Shown: positions 1,051-6,349, counted from the stretch's first letter. The stretch: DNA of 64,000 nt from a bacterium (GCA_030690305.1 JAUYHB010000027.1:15670-79669), one strand, 5' to 3'. Numbers and translations are program-made. Notes: generated from the sequence alone by a model not told the origin.

Positions 1051-1191
1051 TACGCGCCTCCTTTTTTGAGATGGTATTTAATCCCACATCTTTCAAATTC
1101 TAGTCCTAATTATACCATATAAAATGATAAATGACAATTTATTATTTCACCTTTTTCATATTTTGCTGTATTATCCTTACATTGAAAGATA

Positions 1192-1265
1192 GGGCGGATA
1201 GTTCAGTTGGTTAGAACGTACGGTTCACATCCGTAAGGTCACAGGTTCGAATCCTGTTCCGCCCA
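1192..1265 (+). tRNA. tRNA-Val (anticodon CAC)
   Basis: Manual cloverleaf: acceptor GGGCGGA/TCCGCCC, U8A9, D-stem GTTC/GAAC, anticodon stem TACGG/CCGTA, loop TTCACAT, T-arm ACAGG-TTCGAAT-CCTGT, discriminator A. Confidence 0.85.
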
Positions 1266-1287
1266 CAGCGCGGAATGTGGAAAATTC

Positions 1288-1387
1288 TTTTTAGAGTCGG
1301 GATGTAGTGTAACGGTAACATGCACGCTTCGGGGTTAATTTTAGTGTCGGGATGTAGTGTAACGGTAACATGCACGCTTCGGGTGCG
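1288..1387 (+). repeat. tandem duplication (2 x 50 nt) of the 5' half of tRNA-Pro(CGG) plus about 10 nt of upstream flank
   Basis: 1288-1333 and 1338-1383 are identical except for one base (ttttag[a/t]gtcgggatgtagtgtaacggtaacatgcacgcttcggg). The first copy ends at tRNA position 37 and the second continues into the complete tRNA. Confidence 0.7.
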
Positions 1388-1419
1388 TGAGACTCCGGGT
1401 TCAAATCCCGGCATCCCGA
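1348..1419 (+). tRNA. tRNA-Pro (anticodon CGG)
   Basis: Acceptor CGGGATG/CATCCCG, U8A9, D-stem GTGT/ACAT with AACGGTA loop, anticodon stem CACGC/GCGTG, loop TTCGGGT, T-arm CCGGG-TTCAAAT-CCCGG, discriminator A. Confidence 0.8.
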
Positions 1420-1465
1420 CACTGGGATTAACCGGAAGTCCGGGGGACTTCCGAGGCTCGAAGAG

Positions 1466-1579
1466 GTGAGACTCCGGGTGAGATATGCTGGGGGCATATC
1501 GCAAGACCTTTTGAGATAATTTCTGAATTATCCAAAAGGTGTACAGAATCTGTAAGATTCAAATCCCGGCATCCCGACT
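1466..1579 (+). pseudogene. tRNA-Pro 3'-half copy (anticodon-stem 3' strand through acceptor 3' end) interrupted in the T-loop by a 78-nt hairpin-rich insert; probable tRNA fragment or pseudogene
   Basis: gtgagactccgggt (1466-1479) and ttcaaatcccggcatcccgac (1558-1578) are identical to the authentic tRNA-Pro 3' half (1386-1420). Between them lies a 78-nt insert (1480-1557) with two hairpins, GAGATATGC/GCATATC and CCTTTTGAGATAAT/ATTATC-CAAAAGG. The candidate 5' segment CTGGGAT-TA at 1422-1430 continues into an extra 9-bp hairpin (CGGAAGTCC/GGACTTCCG, 1433-1453) and no anticodon arm can be drawn, so a clean cloverleaf cannot be built. Confidence 0.45.
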
Positions 1580-1589
1580 CTGAAAAGAA

Positions 1590-1663
1590 GGGCCTGTAGT
1601 AAAGTGGTATTACACAGCATTCGCATTGCTGAGGCGGGGGTTCGATTCCCCCCAGGTCCACCA
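1590..1663 (+). tRNA. tRNA-Ala (anticodon CGC), CCA encoded
   Basis: Acceptor GGGCCTG/CAGGTCC with G3:U70 (the Ala identity pair), D-arm GTAA-AGTGGTA-TTAC, anticodon stem CAGCA/TGCTG, loop TTCGCAT, T-arm GGGGG-TTCGATT-CCCCC, then ACCA. Confidence 0.85.
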
Positions 1664-1665
1664 AA

Positions 1666-1736
1666 CGGGCTGTAGTACAACGGTAGTATATACGCATGGG
1701 GTGCGTATGACCCGGGTTCAACTCCCGGCAGCCCGA
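1666..1736 (+). tRNA. tRNA-Pro (anticodon GGG)
   Basis: Acceptor CGGGCTG/CAGCCCG, U8A9, D-arm GTAC-AACGGTA-GTAT, anticodon stem TACGC/GCGTA, loop ATGGGGT, T-arm CCGGG-TTCAACT-CCCGG, discriminator A. Starts 2 nt after the CCA of the preceding tRNA. Confidence 0.8.
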
Positions 1737-2145: not shown

Positions 2146-3111
2146 ATGGAAGAATCTATAATCGGTTTTCCGGAACAATTTTCTTTTCACCCAGTCATTG
2201 AAAATGCAGACGCGCTCCGTCCGGCGGAACATTTTATTTTATGCGGCATGGGCGGTTCCCATCTTGCCGCGGGGCTCATAAAACTGTACGACCCGACGCT
2301 CAATCTTTCGGTTCACTATGACTATGCATTGCCTCAATACCCGCACGCGAAATTGAAAGAAGGCCTTCTTATCGCCAGTTCGTTTTCCGGAAATACCGTT
2401 GAAACGATTGATTTTGCACAAAAAGCCTTTGACCAGAAACTCAATCTGATAATTATCGCGTCCGGAGGAAAACTTCTCGAATTTGCGAAAATAAACAATA
2501 TACCGTATATCGCTCTTCCGGCCGTGCGTATTCAGCCGAGAAACGCCGTCGGGTATTCGTTGCTTGCCCTTGCCGAAGCGACATCGAATAAAATGCTTCT
2601 TAATACGTTATGGGGCATGCGGGGGAACTTGGATGCCATGCGGTTTAAGCAGGACGGAGAAATGCTTGCCGAAAAGTTGCAGGGAAAGGTTCCGGTGATT
2701 TATTCCTCAAATAACAACCACTCACTTGCATACAATTGGAAAATAAAATTTAACGAAACCGCGAAAATCCCCGCCTTTTTCAATATGTTTCCGGAACTCA
2801 ATCACAATGAGCTCGCGGGTTTTGACACGACCGAAGAAAAAAAAGCACTCATGCGTCCGTTTCATTTTATTTTTCTTCGGGATTCCAACGACCATCCTGC
2901 AATCATAAAAAGAATGGACATCGCGAAAGACTTGTATCTTACGCGGGGTTTCGATGTGGAGGAGGTGATGCTTACGGGCTCGCATGTCCTTGAAAAAGCA
3001 TTCAACTCGATTTTTCTTGCGGACTGGACGGCATTTTCCCTTGCTTCTTTTTACGGCGTTGACCCGGAACAAGTGCCTCTCATTGAGGAATTCAAAAGTC
3101 TTATCGCATAA
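2146..3111 (+). CDS. pgi: SIS-domain bifunctional phosphoglucose/phosphomannose isomerase (archaeal-type PGI/PMI)
   Basis: SIS motif ...ILCGMGGSHLAAG...; about 320-aa two-SIS architecture typical of PGI/PMI; sits next to a glucokinase-like gene. Confidence 0.75.
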   Translation: MEESIIGFPEQFSFHPVIENADALRPAEHFILCGMGGSHLAAGLIKLYDPTLNLSVHYDYALPQYPHAKLKEGLLIASSFSGNTVETIDFAQKAFDQKLNLIIIASGGKLLEFAKINNIPYIALPAVRIQPRNAVGYSLLALAEATSNKMLLNTLWGMRGNLDAMRFKQDGEMLAEKLQGKVPVIYSSNNNHSLAYNWKIKFNETAKIPAFFNMFPELNHNELAGFDTTEEKKALMRPFHFIFLRDSNDHPAIIKRMDIAKDLYLTRGFDVEEVMLTGSHVLEKAFNSIFLADWTAFSLASFYGVDPEQVPLIEEFKSLIA

Positions 3112-3114
3112 AAC

Positions 3115-3957
3115 ATGTACATGCTTTTCGACATTGGCGGAACAAAGATGCGTATCGCCGTCTCCGACGGGGGCCGTCAACTTGGAGAATATAAAATCGT
3201 TGAAACCCCGAAAGACTTTAACGAAGGAATGTCGCGGTTTGCATCCGTCGTCGCGGAATTAACTCACGGAAAAAAAGCCCAGGGCGCCGCGGGAGGTATC
3301 GCGGGCACTTTCTTGAAAGAAAAAAAAGAACTTGTCCGTTCTCCCCATTTGCGCGCATGGGTGGGAAAGCCCATTCAGGAAGAGTTGGAGAAAATTATCG
3401 GAGGAAAAGTGTTTATTGAAAACGATGCGGCTATTGTGGGGTTGGGAGAAGCGTTATACGGGGCGGGCAAAGGACACAATATTGTCGTATATGTCACTGT
3501 AAGCACCGGTGTCGGCGGAGCGCGCATTGTCAAAGGAATTATCGACCCTTCAACTGCCGGTTTTGAACCCGGACATCAGGTCATAGATATCGCTTCGGCC
3601 ATTGACCCAGTTGATAATCCTAACGGTACGCTTGAGAATTTCATATCTGGTTCGGCTATGGAAAAACGGTTCGGTGTTCCTCCGTGGGAAGTTACCGACA
3701 AGCATGCGTGGGAAGAAATGGCGGAGTGGCTGGCCTACGGTCTTTTCAACACCACATTATATTGGTCCCCTGAGGTCATCGTTTTGGGCGGCCCCATGAT
3801 AGTCGGGCGTCCGGGCATCGATGTTCATCTGACGACGCTGTATCTAAAGAAACTTCTTGAAGAGTTTTCATATATGCCCCTTATCAAAAAGGCACAGCTT
3901 GAATCTATCGGAGGCCTCTACGGGGCGCTTGCCCATTTGAACAGAGTAATAAGATAG
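3115..3957 (+). CDS. ROK-family sugar kinase (glucokinase-like)
   Basis: N-terminal DIGGTKMRIAV actin-fold phosphate-1 motif and ENDAAIVGLGEALYGAGKG ROK signature. Confidence 0.8.
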   Translation: MYMLFDIGGTKMRIAVSDGGRQLGEYKIVETPKDFNEGMSRFASVVAELTHGKKAQGAAGGIAGTFLKEKKELVRSPHLRAWVGKPIQEELEKIIGGKVFIENDAAIVGLGEALYGAGKGHNIVVYVTVSTGVGGARIVKGIIDPSTAGFEPGHQVIDIASAIDPVDNPNGTLENFISGSAMEKRFGVPPWEVTDKHAWEEMAEWLAYGLFNTTLYWSPEVIVLGGPMIVGRPGIDVHLTTLYLKKLLEEFSYMPLIKKAQLESIGGLYGALAHLNRVIR

Positions 3958-3965
3958 TGTAGTCT

Positions 3966-4223
3966 TTGAAGACTATTAAGATAAAAATATCGCCCATTAT
4001 GTTTGGAAATTTTTTGCTTAAACAATTTATCAAATCAAAACTGAAAGGGGTGCCCGATTCCGAAATCGACAGACTTATTTCCATTGTTGAAAAAAACCCC
4101 GATTTTTTCAAAAAAGTCGCTACCGAAGTGGAACAGAAGGTAAAAGGAGGACAAGACCAGAGCGCGGCGATGGCCGAGGTTATGAAAAAATACGAATCGG
4201 AATTGAAAAATATCGCCCACTAA
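3966..4223 (+). CDS. hypothetical small protein
   Basis: Open frame filling the glucokinase-ychF gap. Start is uncertain: TTG at 3966 or ATG at 3999. No family recognised. Confidence 0.35.
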
Positions 4224-5404: not shown

Positions 5405-6349
5405 ATGGATACAACGCAGCCAACACAAAAACCCCGTACAACAGCCGCCGACTTCTTTCTCCATCTCGGAGTTATTGTCGCCTTGTACGTAACGGTAATC
5501 AGTTTTCTCAATCTCGTTTTCAGCCTTATTAACTATGTATATCCGAACTTGCCGCTTGAACAGGGGGTTCCGACAAGCGACCTGAGTATCCCCGTGTCTG
5601 CGCTTGTTATTTTTGCCCCGTTGTACATTTTTCTTTCATGGCTTCTCAATAAGCAATATGGCACCAACCCTTACAAGCGTGAGTTGGGAGTGCGAAAATG
5701 GCTGGTGTATCTTACGCTTTTTATCTCCGGTCTGGCGATTGCTATCGACCTTGTTGTTCTGGTGTACAGTTTCGTGAGCGGAGAATTAATCACTCTCGGT
5801 TTCCTCCTTAAGGTCTTGTCGGTCTTTACTGTTTTAGTCGCCGTTTTTTGGTATCATATTGCCGATTTGAAGGACAAAATAAACGCATCACAAAACAAAA
5901 AACTCGCAATTGCTCTTTCCGTTGTCATTATCGGCTTCATTTGTTTGAGTTTTGCCATTATGGGCTCGCCGTTTAAGCAAAGACTTCTGAAAATCGACGG
6001 TCGTCGAGTTTCCGACTTGCAAAACATTCAATATCAAGTGCTTAACTACTGGCAGTCAAAAGAGAAATTACCGACAACACTTGATGACCTTGTCGATTCT
6101 CTTTCGTACAACAAGGTTCCTGTCGACCCTGCTACCCAGTCCCAATATGAATATCGTGCAATTCCGCCCTTTTCCTTCGAATTGTGTGCTACCTTTGATC
6201 TTCCAAGTGAGGAAAGTGTAAAAAGTATTGCACAGCCCGAGTTTGTCAGCGACTATGAATTTGAAAACTGGAAGCATGAAAAGGGAAGAACCTGCTTTGA
6301 ACGCACTATTGACCCGGACAGGTATCCTCCGTATACCAAAGTAAGATAG
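5405..6349 (+). CDS. polytopic membrane protein, function unknown
   Basis: Several hydrophobic helices in the N-terminal 200 aa and a soluble C-terminal domain; no catalytic motif recognised. Confidence 0.6.
   Translation: MDTTQPTQKPRTTAADFFLHLGVIVALYVTVISFLNLVFSLINYVYPNLPLEQGVPTSDLSIPVSALVIFAPLYIFLSWLLNKQYGTNPYKRELGVRKWLVYLTLFISGLAIAIDLVVLVYSFVSGELITLGFLLKVLSVFTVLVAVFWYHIADLKDKINASQNKKLAIALSVVIIGFICLSFAIMGSPFKQRLLKIDGRRVSDLQNIQYQVLNYWQSKEKLPTTLDDLVDSLSYNKVPVDPATQSQYEYRAIPPFSFELCATFDLPSEESVKSIAQPEFVSDYEFENWKHEKGRTCFERTIDPDRYPPYTKVR

What the first reader, a model, noticed from the sequence alone, without database searches (positions are those of the whole stretch)
1421..1589. Second, broken copy of the tRNA-Pro 3' half carrying a 78-nt double-hairpin insert in the T-loop
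The segments 1466-1479 and 1558-1578 reproduce, base for base, the anticodon-stem 3' strand through acceptor 3' end of tRNA-Pro(CGG). They are separated by a 78-nt insert (1480-1557) composed of two hairpins (GAGATATGC/GCATATC and CCTTTTGAGATAAT/ATTATC-CAAAAGG). Upstream, CTGGGAT-TA could be a degenerate acceptor 5' strand, but a 9-bp hairpin CGGAAGTCC/GGACTTCCG replaces the D-arm. Taken with the duplicated 5' half upstream, the Pro-tRNA locus is flanked by fragments of itself. That is the footprint expected from integration or excision of an element at a tRNA gene, or from a miniature insertion element that targets tRNA T-loops.
Basis: seen in the sequence. Interest (0 to 1): 0.55.

Follow-up and report, generated by a model that had tools for sequence, protein, structure and literature searches.

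The report
Nested tRNA-Pro gene with hairpin cassette
The "broken" tRNA-Pro piece is the displaced 3' part of an older tRNA-Pro(CGG) gene copy that is split by a small non-coding cassette carrying a complete replacement tRNA, and the same arrangement recurs at proline tRNA genes of many Patescibacteria and appears undescribed.

Summary
Window 1466-1479 and 1558-1577 repeat tRNA-Pro(CGG) bases 40-53 and 53-72 exactly, split by a 78-nt hairpin insert in the T loop.

It is not a lone decaying copy. The locus is nested:
- outer leader and 5' half (1285-1333)
- a 132-bp cassette (1334-1465): inner leader, intact tRNA, complementary trailer, conserved hairpin hpA, mini-hairpin
- outer 3' piece (1466-1577) and trailer (1578-1589), which pairs with the outer leader (20 bp)

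The same layout, with sharp boundaries, occurs at tRNA-Pro genes in at least ten other Patescibacteria loci. Close relatives at one locus differ in whether the cassette is present. Leader-trailer stems show 13 G·U against 1 A·C mismatches, which points to pairing in the RNA. The 78-nt insert has no second copy in the window, phages or plasmids. It is 76% conserved, with compensatory changes, at the equivalent position in a relative whose neighbouring phosphoglucose isomerase (PGI) is 68% identical.

Most likely this is a relic of a recurrent, non-coding, tRNA-carrying cassette insertion, co-transcribed and held in nested helices. The enzyme and the mechanism are unknown. An integrase scar, a simple MITE, an intron and an assembly artefact all fit poorly.

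The parts
1146..1174 (+). Promoter-like site upstream of the tRNA cluster (context, weak)
   Evidence: TTCACC-17-TATTAT, 9 of 12 matches. With the terminator-like site at 1864-1880, it suggests that Val-Pro-Ala-Pro-Ala is one transcription unit. This is an inference.
1285..1297 (+). Outer leader, complementary to the outer trailer
   Evidence: inverted repeat I1: 1285-1304 pairs with 1570-1589 over 20 nt at 95%. One search counts 12 Watson-Crick pairs and 1 G·U. The pairing appears in the minimum-free-energy fold.
1298..1333 (+). Outer 5' half of tRNA-Pro(CGG): tRNA index 1-36, ending at canonical G37 (relic)
   Evidence: 36/36 identical to 1348-1383. Absent from contig L003, which comes from another sample of the same species.
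1334..1347 (+). Inner leader (IR-L), the left end of the cassette
   Evidence: inverted repeat I2: 1333-1354 pairs with 1412-1433. One search counts 12 Watson-Crick pairs and 3 G·U.
1348..1419 (+). Intact inner tRNA-Pro(CGG), the functional gene
   Evidence: ARAGORN. Rfam tRNA at 65.4 bits. It has C1-G72 and A73, the bacterial tRNA-Pro type as I recall it (not tested).
1420..1432 (+). Inner trailer (IR-R), complementary to the inner leader.
1433..1453 (+). hpA: conserved hairpin CGGAAGTCC-GGG-GGACTTCCG
   Evidence: single copy in the window. The same hairpin follows nested tRNA-Pro genes in L009, L019, L124, L125, L127, L128 and L129. Covarying variants occur in L009 and L144.
1454..1465 (+). 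AGG linker plus mini-hairpin CTCGAAGAG (in the place of hpB), the right end of the cassette
   Evidence: The same CTCGAAGAGG follows hpA in L009 at 610. Other loci carry an A+T-rich hpB here.
1466..1479 (+). Outer 3' piece, part 1: tRNA index 40-53 (end of the anticodon stem, variable loop, T-stem 5' strand)
   Evidence: 14/14 identical to 1387-1400.
1480..1557 (+). 78-nt insert in the T loop, with hairpins at 1482-1500, 1507-1539 and 1546-1560
   Evidence: fold; 59 of 78 positions identical to L009 137-216. A 22-nt block is invariant and two pairs in hairpin 1 changed on both sides.
1558..1577 (+). Outer 3' piece, part 2: tRNA index 53-72 (T loop, T-stem 3' strand, acceptor 3' strand, A73)
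   Evidence: 20/20 identical to 1400-1419.
1578..1589 (+). Outer trailer, complementary to the outer leader

Best explanation
Window 1421-1589 is the downstream remnant of an older tRNA-Pro(CGG) gene copy.

What the DNA shows:
- That copy is interrupted just after G37 by a 132-bp non-coding cassette (1334-1465), which takes the place of nt 38-40.
- The cassette holds a complete tRNA-Pro(CGG), a leader and a trailer that pair with each other, the conserved hairpin hpA, an NGG linker and a second small hairpin.
- The displaced 3' piece (positions 41-73) also carries a three-hairpin insert in its T loop.

What I infer about the RNA:
- The whole structure lies inside the Val-Pro-Ala-Pro-Ala tRNA operon and is probably transcribed with it.
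- The outer leader and 5' half pair with the outer 3' piece and trailer (20 bp). The inner leader pairs with the inner trailer (22 bp including the acceptor stem).
- This lets the inner tRNA fold on its own while the two relic halves are held together. Release probably needs a double-strand RNase first, then RNase P and RNase Z.

What I infer about the origin:
- The cassette belongs to a family that repeatedly forms or inserts in the loops of tRNA genes in Patescibacteria: the anticodon loop of tRNA-Pro, and the T loop of several tRNAs.
- It is lost again by recombination between the direct repeats.
- hpA is the likely cis-acting site. The enzyme that makes the nests is unknown.

Shown: the anatomy, the recurrence, presence and absence among close relatives, and covariation. 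Inferred: transcription, processing, and the direction and mechanism of insertion.
For: Nested anatomy and fold: (z = -10.4).

Recurrence of the layout [5' relic | leader | intact tRNA | complementary trailer | hpA | NGG | small hairpin | 3' relic]:
- L009 (two tRNA-Pro genes, one of them three levels deep), L019, L124, L125 (= L036), L127, L128 (= L071), L129, and L144/L146.
- L144 was fetched through yraN homology, not through the hpA pattern, yet carries a covarying hpA (CGGATGTG / CACATCCG), then TGG, then a mini-hairpin.

Sharp boundaries:
- The 5' relic ends at tRNA index 36-38 in 8 loci.
- The 3' relic starts at index 40-45.
- T-loop pieces mostly start at index 53-58.

Allelic series at one locus:
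- L132-L136 have no cassette.
- L127 has a full cassette replacing AGC (38-40), with relics 100% identical to the inner tRNA.
- L137-L142 keep the 5' relic and leader but have lost the trailer, hpA, hpB and the 3' relic.
- L003 compared with the window is the mirror case.

RNA-level pairing:
- Eleven leader-trailer stems differ in sequence but pair: 184 Watson-Crick, 13 G·U, 1 A·C.
- The hpA-hpB structure is 99% paired, with 5 pairs changed on both sides; 0 of 500 shuffles reach the covariation score.

Conservation:
- The T-loop insert is 59/78 identical between the window and L009, where PGI is 68% and the ROK-family protein (the next gene downstream) 78% identical. That exceeds the inner tRNA-Pro(CGG) (46/66). 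The adjacent spacer cannot be aligned.

No open reading frame fits in the cassette.
Against: - No enzyme, no target-site duplication and no conserved terminal sequence was found, and no protein family recurs next to the nests. Mobility is therefore inferred, not shown.
- The inner tRNA is identical to the relic halves in the window and in L127. tRNA-Pro(GGG) is 71/71 identical between the un-nested window copy and the nested L009 copy. The tRNA in the cassette therefore looks native rather than imported.
- The allelic series can be read as gain or as loss.
- In an equilibrium folding test the correct nested pairing is favoured even with shuffled leaders (0.76-0.95 against 1.0). The helices are not strictly needed for partner choice.
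- The strong conservation of the T-loop insert is more than a mere relic should show.
- hpA was the search pattern for most loci, so its sequence conservation is partly an ascertainment effect.
Confidence: 0.55

Rival explanations
1. The region is a selected, structured non-coding RNA element rather than a relic. On this view the tRNA-derived 3' piece, its T-loop insert and hpA act in the tRNA-operon precursor, or as a separate tRNA-like RNA. Possible roles are a processing scaffold or a binding site for a tRNA-handling protein.
For: - The insert is 76% identical, with a 22-nt invariant block, between genomes whose PGI is 68% identical. That is better conserved than the functional tRNA-Pro(CGG), and the next spacer cannot be aligned.
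- Hairpin 1 shows compensatory changes, and so does an alternative pairing of AUGCUGGGG with the relic's T-stem and acceptor strand.
- G·U outnumbers A·C 13 to 1 in the flanking helices.
- hpA-hpB covary.
- The fold z-scores are strong.
Against: - Only two independent sequences of the insert exist.
- L019, with the same Val-Pro(CGG)-Pro(GGG) gene order, has a much shorter T-loop insert that cannot be aligned, and only a 12-nt 5' relic.
- Relics in L125, L128 and L143 are decaying.
- Alleles lacking parts of the nest exist.
- No Rfam family matches.
- No function can be named.
Confidence: 0.2
2. The fragments are att-site scars. On this view integrative elements (phage or ICE type, using a tyrosine integrase) recombined in the anticodon loop and the T loop of tRNA-Pro and were later almost entirely deleted, leaving duplicated tRNA fragments.
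For: - The breakpoints lie in the anticodon-loop region and the T loop, the classical integrase sublocations in tRNA genes (from my own knowledge of Williams 2002).
- A displaced 3' fragment lies downstream of a restored gene.
- An archaeal precedent exists for a tRNA 5' fragment left by a recombinase-carrying element (PMC3293823).
Against: - The material between the repeats is only 46 bp (1420-1465), or 132 bp for the whole cassette. It has no open reading frame and no integrase nearby.
- 5' halves are duplicated too, in nested order, with matching leader-trailer helices.
- The repeat starts at position 41 inside the stem and leaves out the anticodon loop, where crossover would occur.
- At least ten independent loci keep the same tiny layout, which random deletions would not produce.
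- There is no similarity to phages, plasmids or viral contigs.
Confidence: 0.1
3. The nests are purely local replication errors with no element involved. On this view, template switching and fold-back synthesis at the tRNA's own inverted repeats create tandem partial duplications, extend palindromes (so the trailer becomes the reverse complement of the leader) and insert hairpins into loops.
For: - Many inserted segments are inverted copies of adjacent sequence: GGAATCGAA against TTCGATTCC in L017 and L030, CTTGAACC against GGTTCAAG in L019, and AUGCUGGG against CCCGGCAU in the window.
- Tandem copy number varies: L017 against L099, and the window against L003.
- The tRNA inside the cassette is the native sequence.
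Against: - The same foreign hairpin hpA, the NGG linker and a second hairpin occur at different tRNA genes and in distant lineages.
- The boundaries are the same everywhere.
- The G·U over A·C bias shows selection on one strand, not just a mutational footprint.
Confidence: 0.1
4. The duplicated halves are an assembly artefact of repeated tRNA k-mers.
For: Logan contig L003 lacks the 50-nt 5'-half unit. Short-read contigs often break at these loci.
Against: - The broken 3' copy with its insert is reproduced 100% in independent contigs from another sample.
- The same architecture appears in many assemblies made by different groups and assemblers.
- The junction GTTAA is complementary to the inner trailer, which a collapsed or expanded repeat would not create.
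Confidence: 0.03

Closest known systems
tRNA gene fragments flanking integrative elements (att-site duplications made by tyrosine integrases; sublocations in the anticodon loop and T loop)
   Same: - A functional tRNA gene is followed by a displaced copy of its 3' part.
- The breakpoints lie in the anticodon-arm and T-loop regions.
   Different: - There is no integrase and no element body.
- The insert is 132 bp and contains a whole tRNA.
- 5' halves are duplicated as well, in nested order.
- The repeat begins at position 41 and nt 38-40 are replaced.
- A conserved hairpin sits at the junction.
Disrupted tRNA genes of Archaea (introns at 37/38, split and tri-split tRNAs with complementary leaders, a 5' fragment left by a mobile element; PMC3293823, PMC10714607)
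   Same: - The interruption lies immediately 3' of position 37.
- Complementary flanking sequences form helices.
- There is a link to mobile DNA, and a 5' fragment lies upstream of a replacement gene.
   Different: - The organism is bacterial (Patescibacteria).
- There is no bulge-helix-bulge motif.
- The outer halves cannot be joined into a functional tRNA because nt 38-40 are missing.
- The interrupted copy is redundant with an intact copy that sits inside it.
Group I introns in bacterial tRNA anticodon loops
   Same: The insertion lies in the anticodon loop of a bacterial tRNA gene. L129, one of the related loci, has a real group I intron in another tRNA.
   Different: - No group I core was detected.
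- The insert is too short.
- It contains a tRNA and is not flanked by a complete exon pair.
Leader-trailer helices of rRNA operons (RNase III processing stems; PMC10250234)
   Same: - Sequences flanking a structural RNA pair into a helix of 20 bp or more.
- The helix is kept by covariation and tolerates G·U.
   Different: - Here the helix flanks a single tRNA and extends its acceptor stem, including a -1:73 pair.
- Such leader-3' end pairing is reported to hinder RNase P (PMC9433436, abstract).
- Cleavage is untested.
REP/BIME, MITE and IS200/IS605-derived hairpin elements
   Same: They are small, non-coding and hairpin-rich, and show conserved structure with variable sequence.
   Different: - These modules are not dispersed: there is one copy in 64 kb.
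- They sit only in loops or flanks of tRNA genes.
- They have no terminal repeats or target duplications.
- They are accompanied by a full tRNA copy.

Membership tests
Functional tRNA gene (for 1421-1589) | A cloverleaf recognised by ARAGORN or by the Rfam tRNA model | tested here: not met
   no tRNA call in 1421-1589, even at E-values up to 10.
Integrase att-site duplication at a tRNA gene | An integrase gene and an element body between the repeats | tested here: not met
   Only 46-132 bp lie between the repeats. The only ORFs listed there are two 97-aa minus-strand frames that overlap the tRNA genes, which I judge spurious. The neighbouring genes are NUDIX-like and PGI.
Integrase att-site duplication at a tRNA gene | A direct repeat running from the crossover loop to the 3' end, with only one side of the gene duplicated | tested here: not met
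   The repeat starts at index 40, inside the stem, and is split by the insert. The 5' half is duplicated as well.
Archaeal-type tRNA intron or split tRNA | A bulge-helix-bulge motif at the junctions, and exons that join into a complete tRNA | tested here: not met
   Nt 38-40 are absent, so only 3 bp of the anticodon stem could form. The predicted fold shows no bulge-helix-bulge motif.
Archaeal-type tRNA intron or split tRNA | A splicing endonuclease and ligase in the genome | not tested
   Only 64 kb of the genome is at hand.
Group I intron in a tRNA | A match to the group I catalytic core (Rfam RF00028) | tested here: not met
   no match in 1100-2000. Positive control: L129 scores 53 bits.
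MITE or REP-like dispersed element | Several dispersed copies in the genome | tested here: not met
   a single copy of each hairpin or module in 64 kb. The rest of the genome was not available.
MITE or REP-like dispersed element | Terminal inverted repeats of conserved sequence, and a target-site duplication | tested here: not met
   The leader-trailer repeats differ in sequence between loci, and no duplication is seen at the junctions.
Leader-trailer processing helix (RNase III type) | A helix of about 20 bp or more formed by the flanks and kept by covariation | tested here: met
   helices of 20 and 22 bp; 184 Watson-Crick, 13 G·U and 1 A·C over 11 stems.
Leader-trailer processing helix (RNase III type) | Cleavage by RNase III in vivo or in vitro | not testable with these tools
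   No expression or cleavage data.
Nested tRNA-Pro cassette family (defined here) | 5' relic ending at G37, leader, intact tRNA, complementary trailer, hpA, NGG, small hairpin, 3' relic starting near position 41 | tested here: met
   Window. Other members.

The most novel reading that the evidence does not exclude
A previously undescribed class of non-coding, self-nesting tRNA cassette. It would be a roughly 130-200-bp unit made of an intact tRNA, a leader-trailer helix and a conserved hairpin module (hpA-NGG-hpB). It would insert, or be copied, into the single-stranded loops of a folded tRNA gene or transcript: after G37 in tRNA-Pro, and in the T loop of Arg, Gly and Ala tRNAs. It would compensate for the damage by bringing its own working tRNA, producing nested layers of tRNA halves. 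It would be widespread in Patescibacteria, with related T-loop forms in Actinomycetota, and would be moved by an enzyme not yet identified.
Probability: 0.3. Interest if true: 0.85.

Novelty: new variant of a known kind. Interest (0 to 1): 0.66.

Why it matters
Disrupted tRNA genes (introns at 37/38, split and permuted genes) are regarded as an archaeal and eukaryotic matter. In bacteria, only group I introns and integrase att sites are known at tRNA genes.

A recurrent bacterial structure matters for three reasons. In it a tRNA gene sits inside the anticodon loop of an older copy of itself, with helices kept by covariation and a conserved hairpin.
- It would be a new way in which tRNA genes are remodelled, and a concrete bacterial model for how split and intron-bearing tRNA genes can arise.
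- It would point to an unknown activity that acts on tRNA loops in the reduced genomes of Patescibacteria.
- It explains why short-read assemblies of these organisms break at tRNA-Pro loci, and why tRNA finders leave unannotated structured DNA there.

Tried and rejected
Searches that led nowhere:
- A GTDB scan with 30 nt of the tRNA 5' half gave 0 hits.
- Two viral-contig scans, for hpA and for the invariant 22-mer, gave 0 hits.
- Phage and plasmid BLAST of 1421-1560 gave no match.
- Rfam with permissive thresholds on the window and on 8 related loci found only tRNAs and one group I intron elsewhere.
- The covariance model of hpA-hpB found no further module in the window and did not recognise the hairpins of the 78-nt insert. 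Relatedness between the T-loop insert and hpA-hpB is therefore only architectural.
- PGI homologues at 55-67% identity (L005, L131, P0007) have no tRNA cluster upstream, or no DNA was available.
- About half of the 118 metagenome hits to the hpA pattern belong to an unrelated, longer palindrome family.
- An all-against-all comparison of ORFs near the nests found no recurrent nuclease or recombinase, only the CCA-adding enzyme gene, which I read as shared gene order.

A test that gave weak support:
- The idea that the helices are needed to choose the right pairing partner gets only weak support from equilibrium folding.

Ideas considered and set aside:
- IS200/IS605 or TnpB guide-RNA-like right ends. 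Nt 38-40 are lost, the modules are not dispersed, and there is no open reading frame.
- Integron attC sites. The orientation of the GTT/AAC motifs is wrong, and the termini are not conserved.
- Hammerhead, HDV-like and twister ribozymes. I saw no core motifs by eye; this was not formally tested beyond Rfam.
- A resemblance of hpA to the conserved GGAAAGUCCGGG segment of RNase P RNA. This is recalled from memory, only about 11 nt long, with no long-range partner, so I treat it as coincidence.
- A correlation between the NGG linker or the hpA loop and the anticodon of the host tRNA. There is none.

Full report
**1. The observation**

The window holds five tRNA genes:
- Val(CAC) at 1192-1266
- Pro(CGG) at 1348-1419
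- Ala(CGC) at 1590-1663
- Pro(GGG) at 1666-1736
- Ala(GGC) at 1781-1852

A promoter-like site lies at 1146-1174 and a terminator-like hairpin at 1864-1880.
- 1466-1479 repeats 1387-1400 exactly. The tRNA part of the second repeat (1558-1577) matches 1400-1419 at 20/20.
- The two segments are separated by 78 nt that fold into three hairpins: 1482-1500, 1507-1539 and 1546-1560.
- Upstream, 1289-1333 repeats 1339-1383 at 44/45. This is the leader plus tRNA index 1-36, ending at canonical G37.
- Nothing in 1421-1589 is called as a tRNA or as any Rfam family.
- Contigs from a second sample reproduce the broken copy exactly.

**2. The anatomy is nested**

- 1285-1304 pairs with 1570-1589 (20 nt, 95%). 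This joins the outer leader and 5' acceptor strand to the outer 3' acceptor strand and trailer.
- 1333-1354 pairs with 1412-1433 (22 nt). This joins the inner leader to the inner trailer, around the intact tRNA.
- The two stems differ by a compensatory pair (AGAGT/ACTCT against AGTGT/ACACT). The three apparent mismatches of the inner stem are all G·U.
- Folded as one RNA, 1280-1595 adopts exactly this nested structure, at -149 kcal/mol and z = -10.4.

The locus therefore reads as follows:
- outer leader and outer 5' half (1285-1333)
- a 132-bp cassette (1334-1465): inner leader, intact tRNA, inner trailer, hairpin hpA (1433-1453), AGG, and the mini-hairpin CTCGAAGAG
- outer 3' piece starting at position 41 (1466-1577), carrying the 78-nt T-loop insert
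- outer trailer (1578-1589)

Nt 38-40 of the outer copy are missing. The outer halves therefore could not be joined into a working tRNA.

**3. The organism and the orthologous locus**

The neighbouring phosphoglucose isomerase (PGI) is 100% identical to a protein of a Patescibacteria MAG.

A relative from Hainich groundwater (L009; PGI 68% and ROK 78% identical) has the same gene order. After its tRNA-Pro(CGG) come, in turn:
- a trailer
- an hpA variant with one G·U
- an A+T-rich second hairpin (hpB)
- a 3' piece whose T loop holds a homologous insert

The two inserts compare as follows.
- 59 of 78 positions are identical.
- The block GGTGTACAGAATCTGTAAGATT is invariant.
- Hairpin 1 changed from GATATGC/GCATATC to GAAGTGC/GCACTTC, which is two pairs changed on both sides.
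- This exceeds the identity of the functional tRNA-Pro(CGG) of the two genomes (46/66). The spacer after the relic cannot be aligned.
- Part of the insert (AUGCUGGGG) is complementary to the relic's own T-stem and acceptor strand, and that pairing also covaries.

The insert is therefore neither unique nor a dispersed repeat. No other copy exists in the window, in viral contigs, in phages or in plasmids.

In L009, tRNA-Pro(GGG) is 71/71 identical to the un-nested window gene. There it is nested three levels deep: three 5' halves each ending at G37, a perfect 12-bp leader-trailer stem around the intact copy, and two further 3' pieces. Each 3' piece is preceded by an hpA-type hairpin, and one has a different T-loop insert.

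**4. A family**

I scanned the metagenome and GTDB collections for the hpA hairpin.

The same layout occurs at tRNA-Pro(TGG) in L125 (= L036), L128 (= L071), L124 and L127, and at tRNA-Pro(CGG) in L129 and L019.

A 'T-loop type' also exists. It is a 3' piece that starts in the T loop, preceded by its own complement and by hpA-NGG-hpB. It follows these genes:
- tRNA-Arg (L017/L099, L030)
- tRNA-Gly (L126, L041)
- two unidentified tRNAs (L067, L098)
- tRNA-Ala of two Actinomycetota contigs (L011/L130)

Of 125 hairpin hits, 20 lie 13-90 nt downstream of a tRNA 3' end on the same strand. About half of all hits belong to an unrelated longer palindrome.

The boundaries are sharp:
- 5' relics end at tRNA index 36-38 in eight loci.
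- 3' relics begin at index 40-45.
- T-loop pieces mostly begin at index 53-58.

The leader-trailer stems have unrelated sequences in different loci but always pair. Over eleven stems there are 184 Watson-Crick pairs, 13 G·U and 1 A·C. This strand asymmetry is what selection on the sense-strand RNA predicts.

hpA-hpB is 99% paired, with five pairs changed on both sides.

**5. Gain and loss among close relatives**

In several lineages the gene yraN lies just upstream of tRNA-Pro(TGG). I used its homologues to fetch the same locus from relatives of L127.
- L132-L136 (yraN 96% identical, five assemblies): one plain tRNA-Pro(TGG) with the native leader and no cassette. A hairpin-rich T-loop-type element and a displaced T-loop piece lie downstream.
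- L127: the same native leader, then a roughly 190-bp cassette replacing AGC (38-40), with both relics 100% identical to the inner tRNA.
- L137-L142 (yraN 86%, six assemblies): the 5' relic and the same inner leader are kept. The 5' relic now has a 65-nt hairpin in its D loop. The trailer, hpA, hpB and the 3' relic are gone. Recombination between the 32-nt direct repeats would produce exactly this.
- L003 compared with the window is the mirror case: the 5' unit is lost.
- L143 (yraN 70%) is another half-nest.
- L144/L146 (yraN 55%) were found without using hpA as bait. They have a nest with at least two 5' relics, a covarying hpA (CGGATGTG / CACATCCG), TGG, a mini-hairpin, and a 3' piece whose acceptor strand matches the second 5' relic.

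Nests are therefore made and lost on short time scales, and relic loops collect hairpins.

**6. What it most likely is**

Shown:
- The window segment is the displaced 3' remnant of a tRNA-Pro(CGG) copy split by a tRNA-carrying, non-coding cassette.
- This arrangement recurs.
- Its helices and hairpins are kept by covariation.

Inferred:
- The structure is transcribed within the operon.
- The nested helices let the inner tRNA fold and keep the relic halves paired.
- Release of the inner tRNA needs a double-strand RNase before RNase P and RNase Z. Pairing of the leader with the 3' end is reported to hinder RNase P (PMC9433436, abstract).
- hpA is the cis-acting site of whatever makes the nests.

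The weak points are these.
- No enzyme was found, and no gene family recurs next to the nests except the CCA-adding enzyme, which I read as shared gene order.
- There is no target duplication.
- The tRNA inside the cassette looks native.
- Equilibrium folding prefers the nested pairing even without the leaders.

**7. Rivals**

- A selected structured RNA. The conservation of the insert favours this, but L019 has only a short T-loop insert that cannot be aligned, and other relics decay.
- An integrase scar. The breakpoints resemble integrase sublocations, and there is an archaeal precedent for a 5' fragment left by a recombinase element (PMC3293823). But there is no element body, both halves are duplicated in nested order, and the repeat starts inside the stem.
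- Pure replication error. Many inserts are inverted copies of neighbouring sequence, but hpA recurs at unrelated tRNAs and lineages.
- An assembly artefact. Independent assemblies agree.

**8. Comparison with what is known, and novelty**

Full-text searches for tRNA introns, split tRNAs or tRNA gene fragments in Patescibacteria or CPR found nothing on this. For CPR they found only introns in rRNA genes.

The closest known things are:
- att-site duplications at tRNA genes
- archaeal disrupted tRNA genes
- group I introns in tRNA genes
- rRNA leader-trailer helices
- REP- or MITE-type hairpins

Each fails at least one defining feature, as the membership table shows. I file this as a new variant of the known kind 'tRNA genes disrupted by insertions'. 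I give about a 30% chance that it is a new class of self-nesting tRNA cassette.

Noticed in passing
L129 4108-4460 and about 3700-4000 (minus strand): A tRNA gene is interrupted in its anticodon loop by a group I intron (Rfam RF00028, 53 bits). An HNH-type endonuclease ORF, recognised by eye, lies just upstream, about 500 nt downstream of a nested tRNA-Pro(CGG).
   Followed up: partly
window 1289-1338, compared with L003: The 50-nt unit (leader, 5' half and GTTAA) is absent from a Logan contig of the same species from another sample. This is either a real deletion between the 45-nt repeats or a collapse in the de Bruijn graph.
   Followed up: partly
L125, L127, L128, L132-L146: The gene order cca (CCA-adding enzyme, PolyA_pol + HD domains), yraN (UPF0102 nuclease-like), tRNA-Pro(TGG) is conserved across several Patescibacteria lineages. 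Most short-read contigs carrying yraN are only about 1 kb long, apparently because they break at the nested repeats.
   Followed up: partly
L011 7041-7182 and L130 (minus strand) 5865-6000: In two Actinomycetota contigs, tRNA-Ala(CGC) is followed after 31 nt by the same hpA hairpin and a 10-14-nt copy of the tRNA 3' end. This is a T-loop or 3'-end type outside Patescibacteria.
   Followed up: no
L024 (three copies) and about 55 other metagenome loci: A longer palindrome, GACTT-CGGAAGTCC-nnn-GGACTTCCG-AAGTC, forms a separate and abundant hairpin repeat family in high-GC contigs. It is unrelated to the tRNA nests.
   Followed up: no
L137-L142, locus L137 about 1988-2052: A 65-nt near-perfect hairpin is inserted in the D loop (after GTAGTA) of the relic 5' half. 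L019's 5' relic ends at the same position, index 12.
   Followed up: no
L017 3035-3200 and L099 126-400: The 130-nt unit after tRNA-Arg(GCG), made of trailer, complement, hpA-hpB and a 3' piece, is present once in one assembly and twice in tandem in another.
   Followed up: no
L127 about 3040-3180, and L132, L137, L143: The T-loop-type element contains a conserved hairpin, TCCGG-AATCGAAAG-CCGGA. Its loop is complementary to the T loop TTCGATT of the adjacent tRNA-Pro, so a loop-loop contact is possible.
   Followed up: no
window 1211-1504 and 1428-1721 (minus strand): Two 97-aa ORFs overlap the tRNA genes on the opposite strand. They are almost certainly spurious.
   Followed up: no
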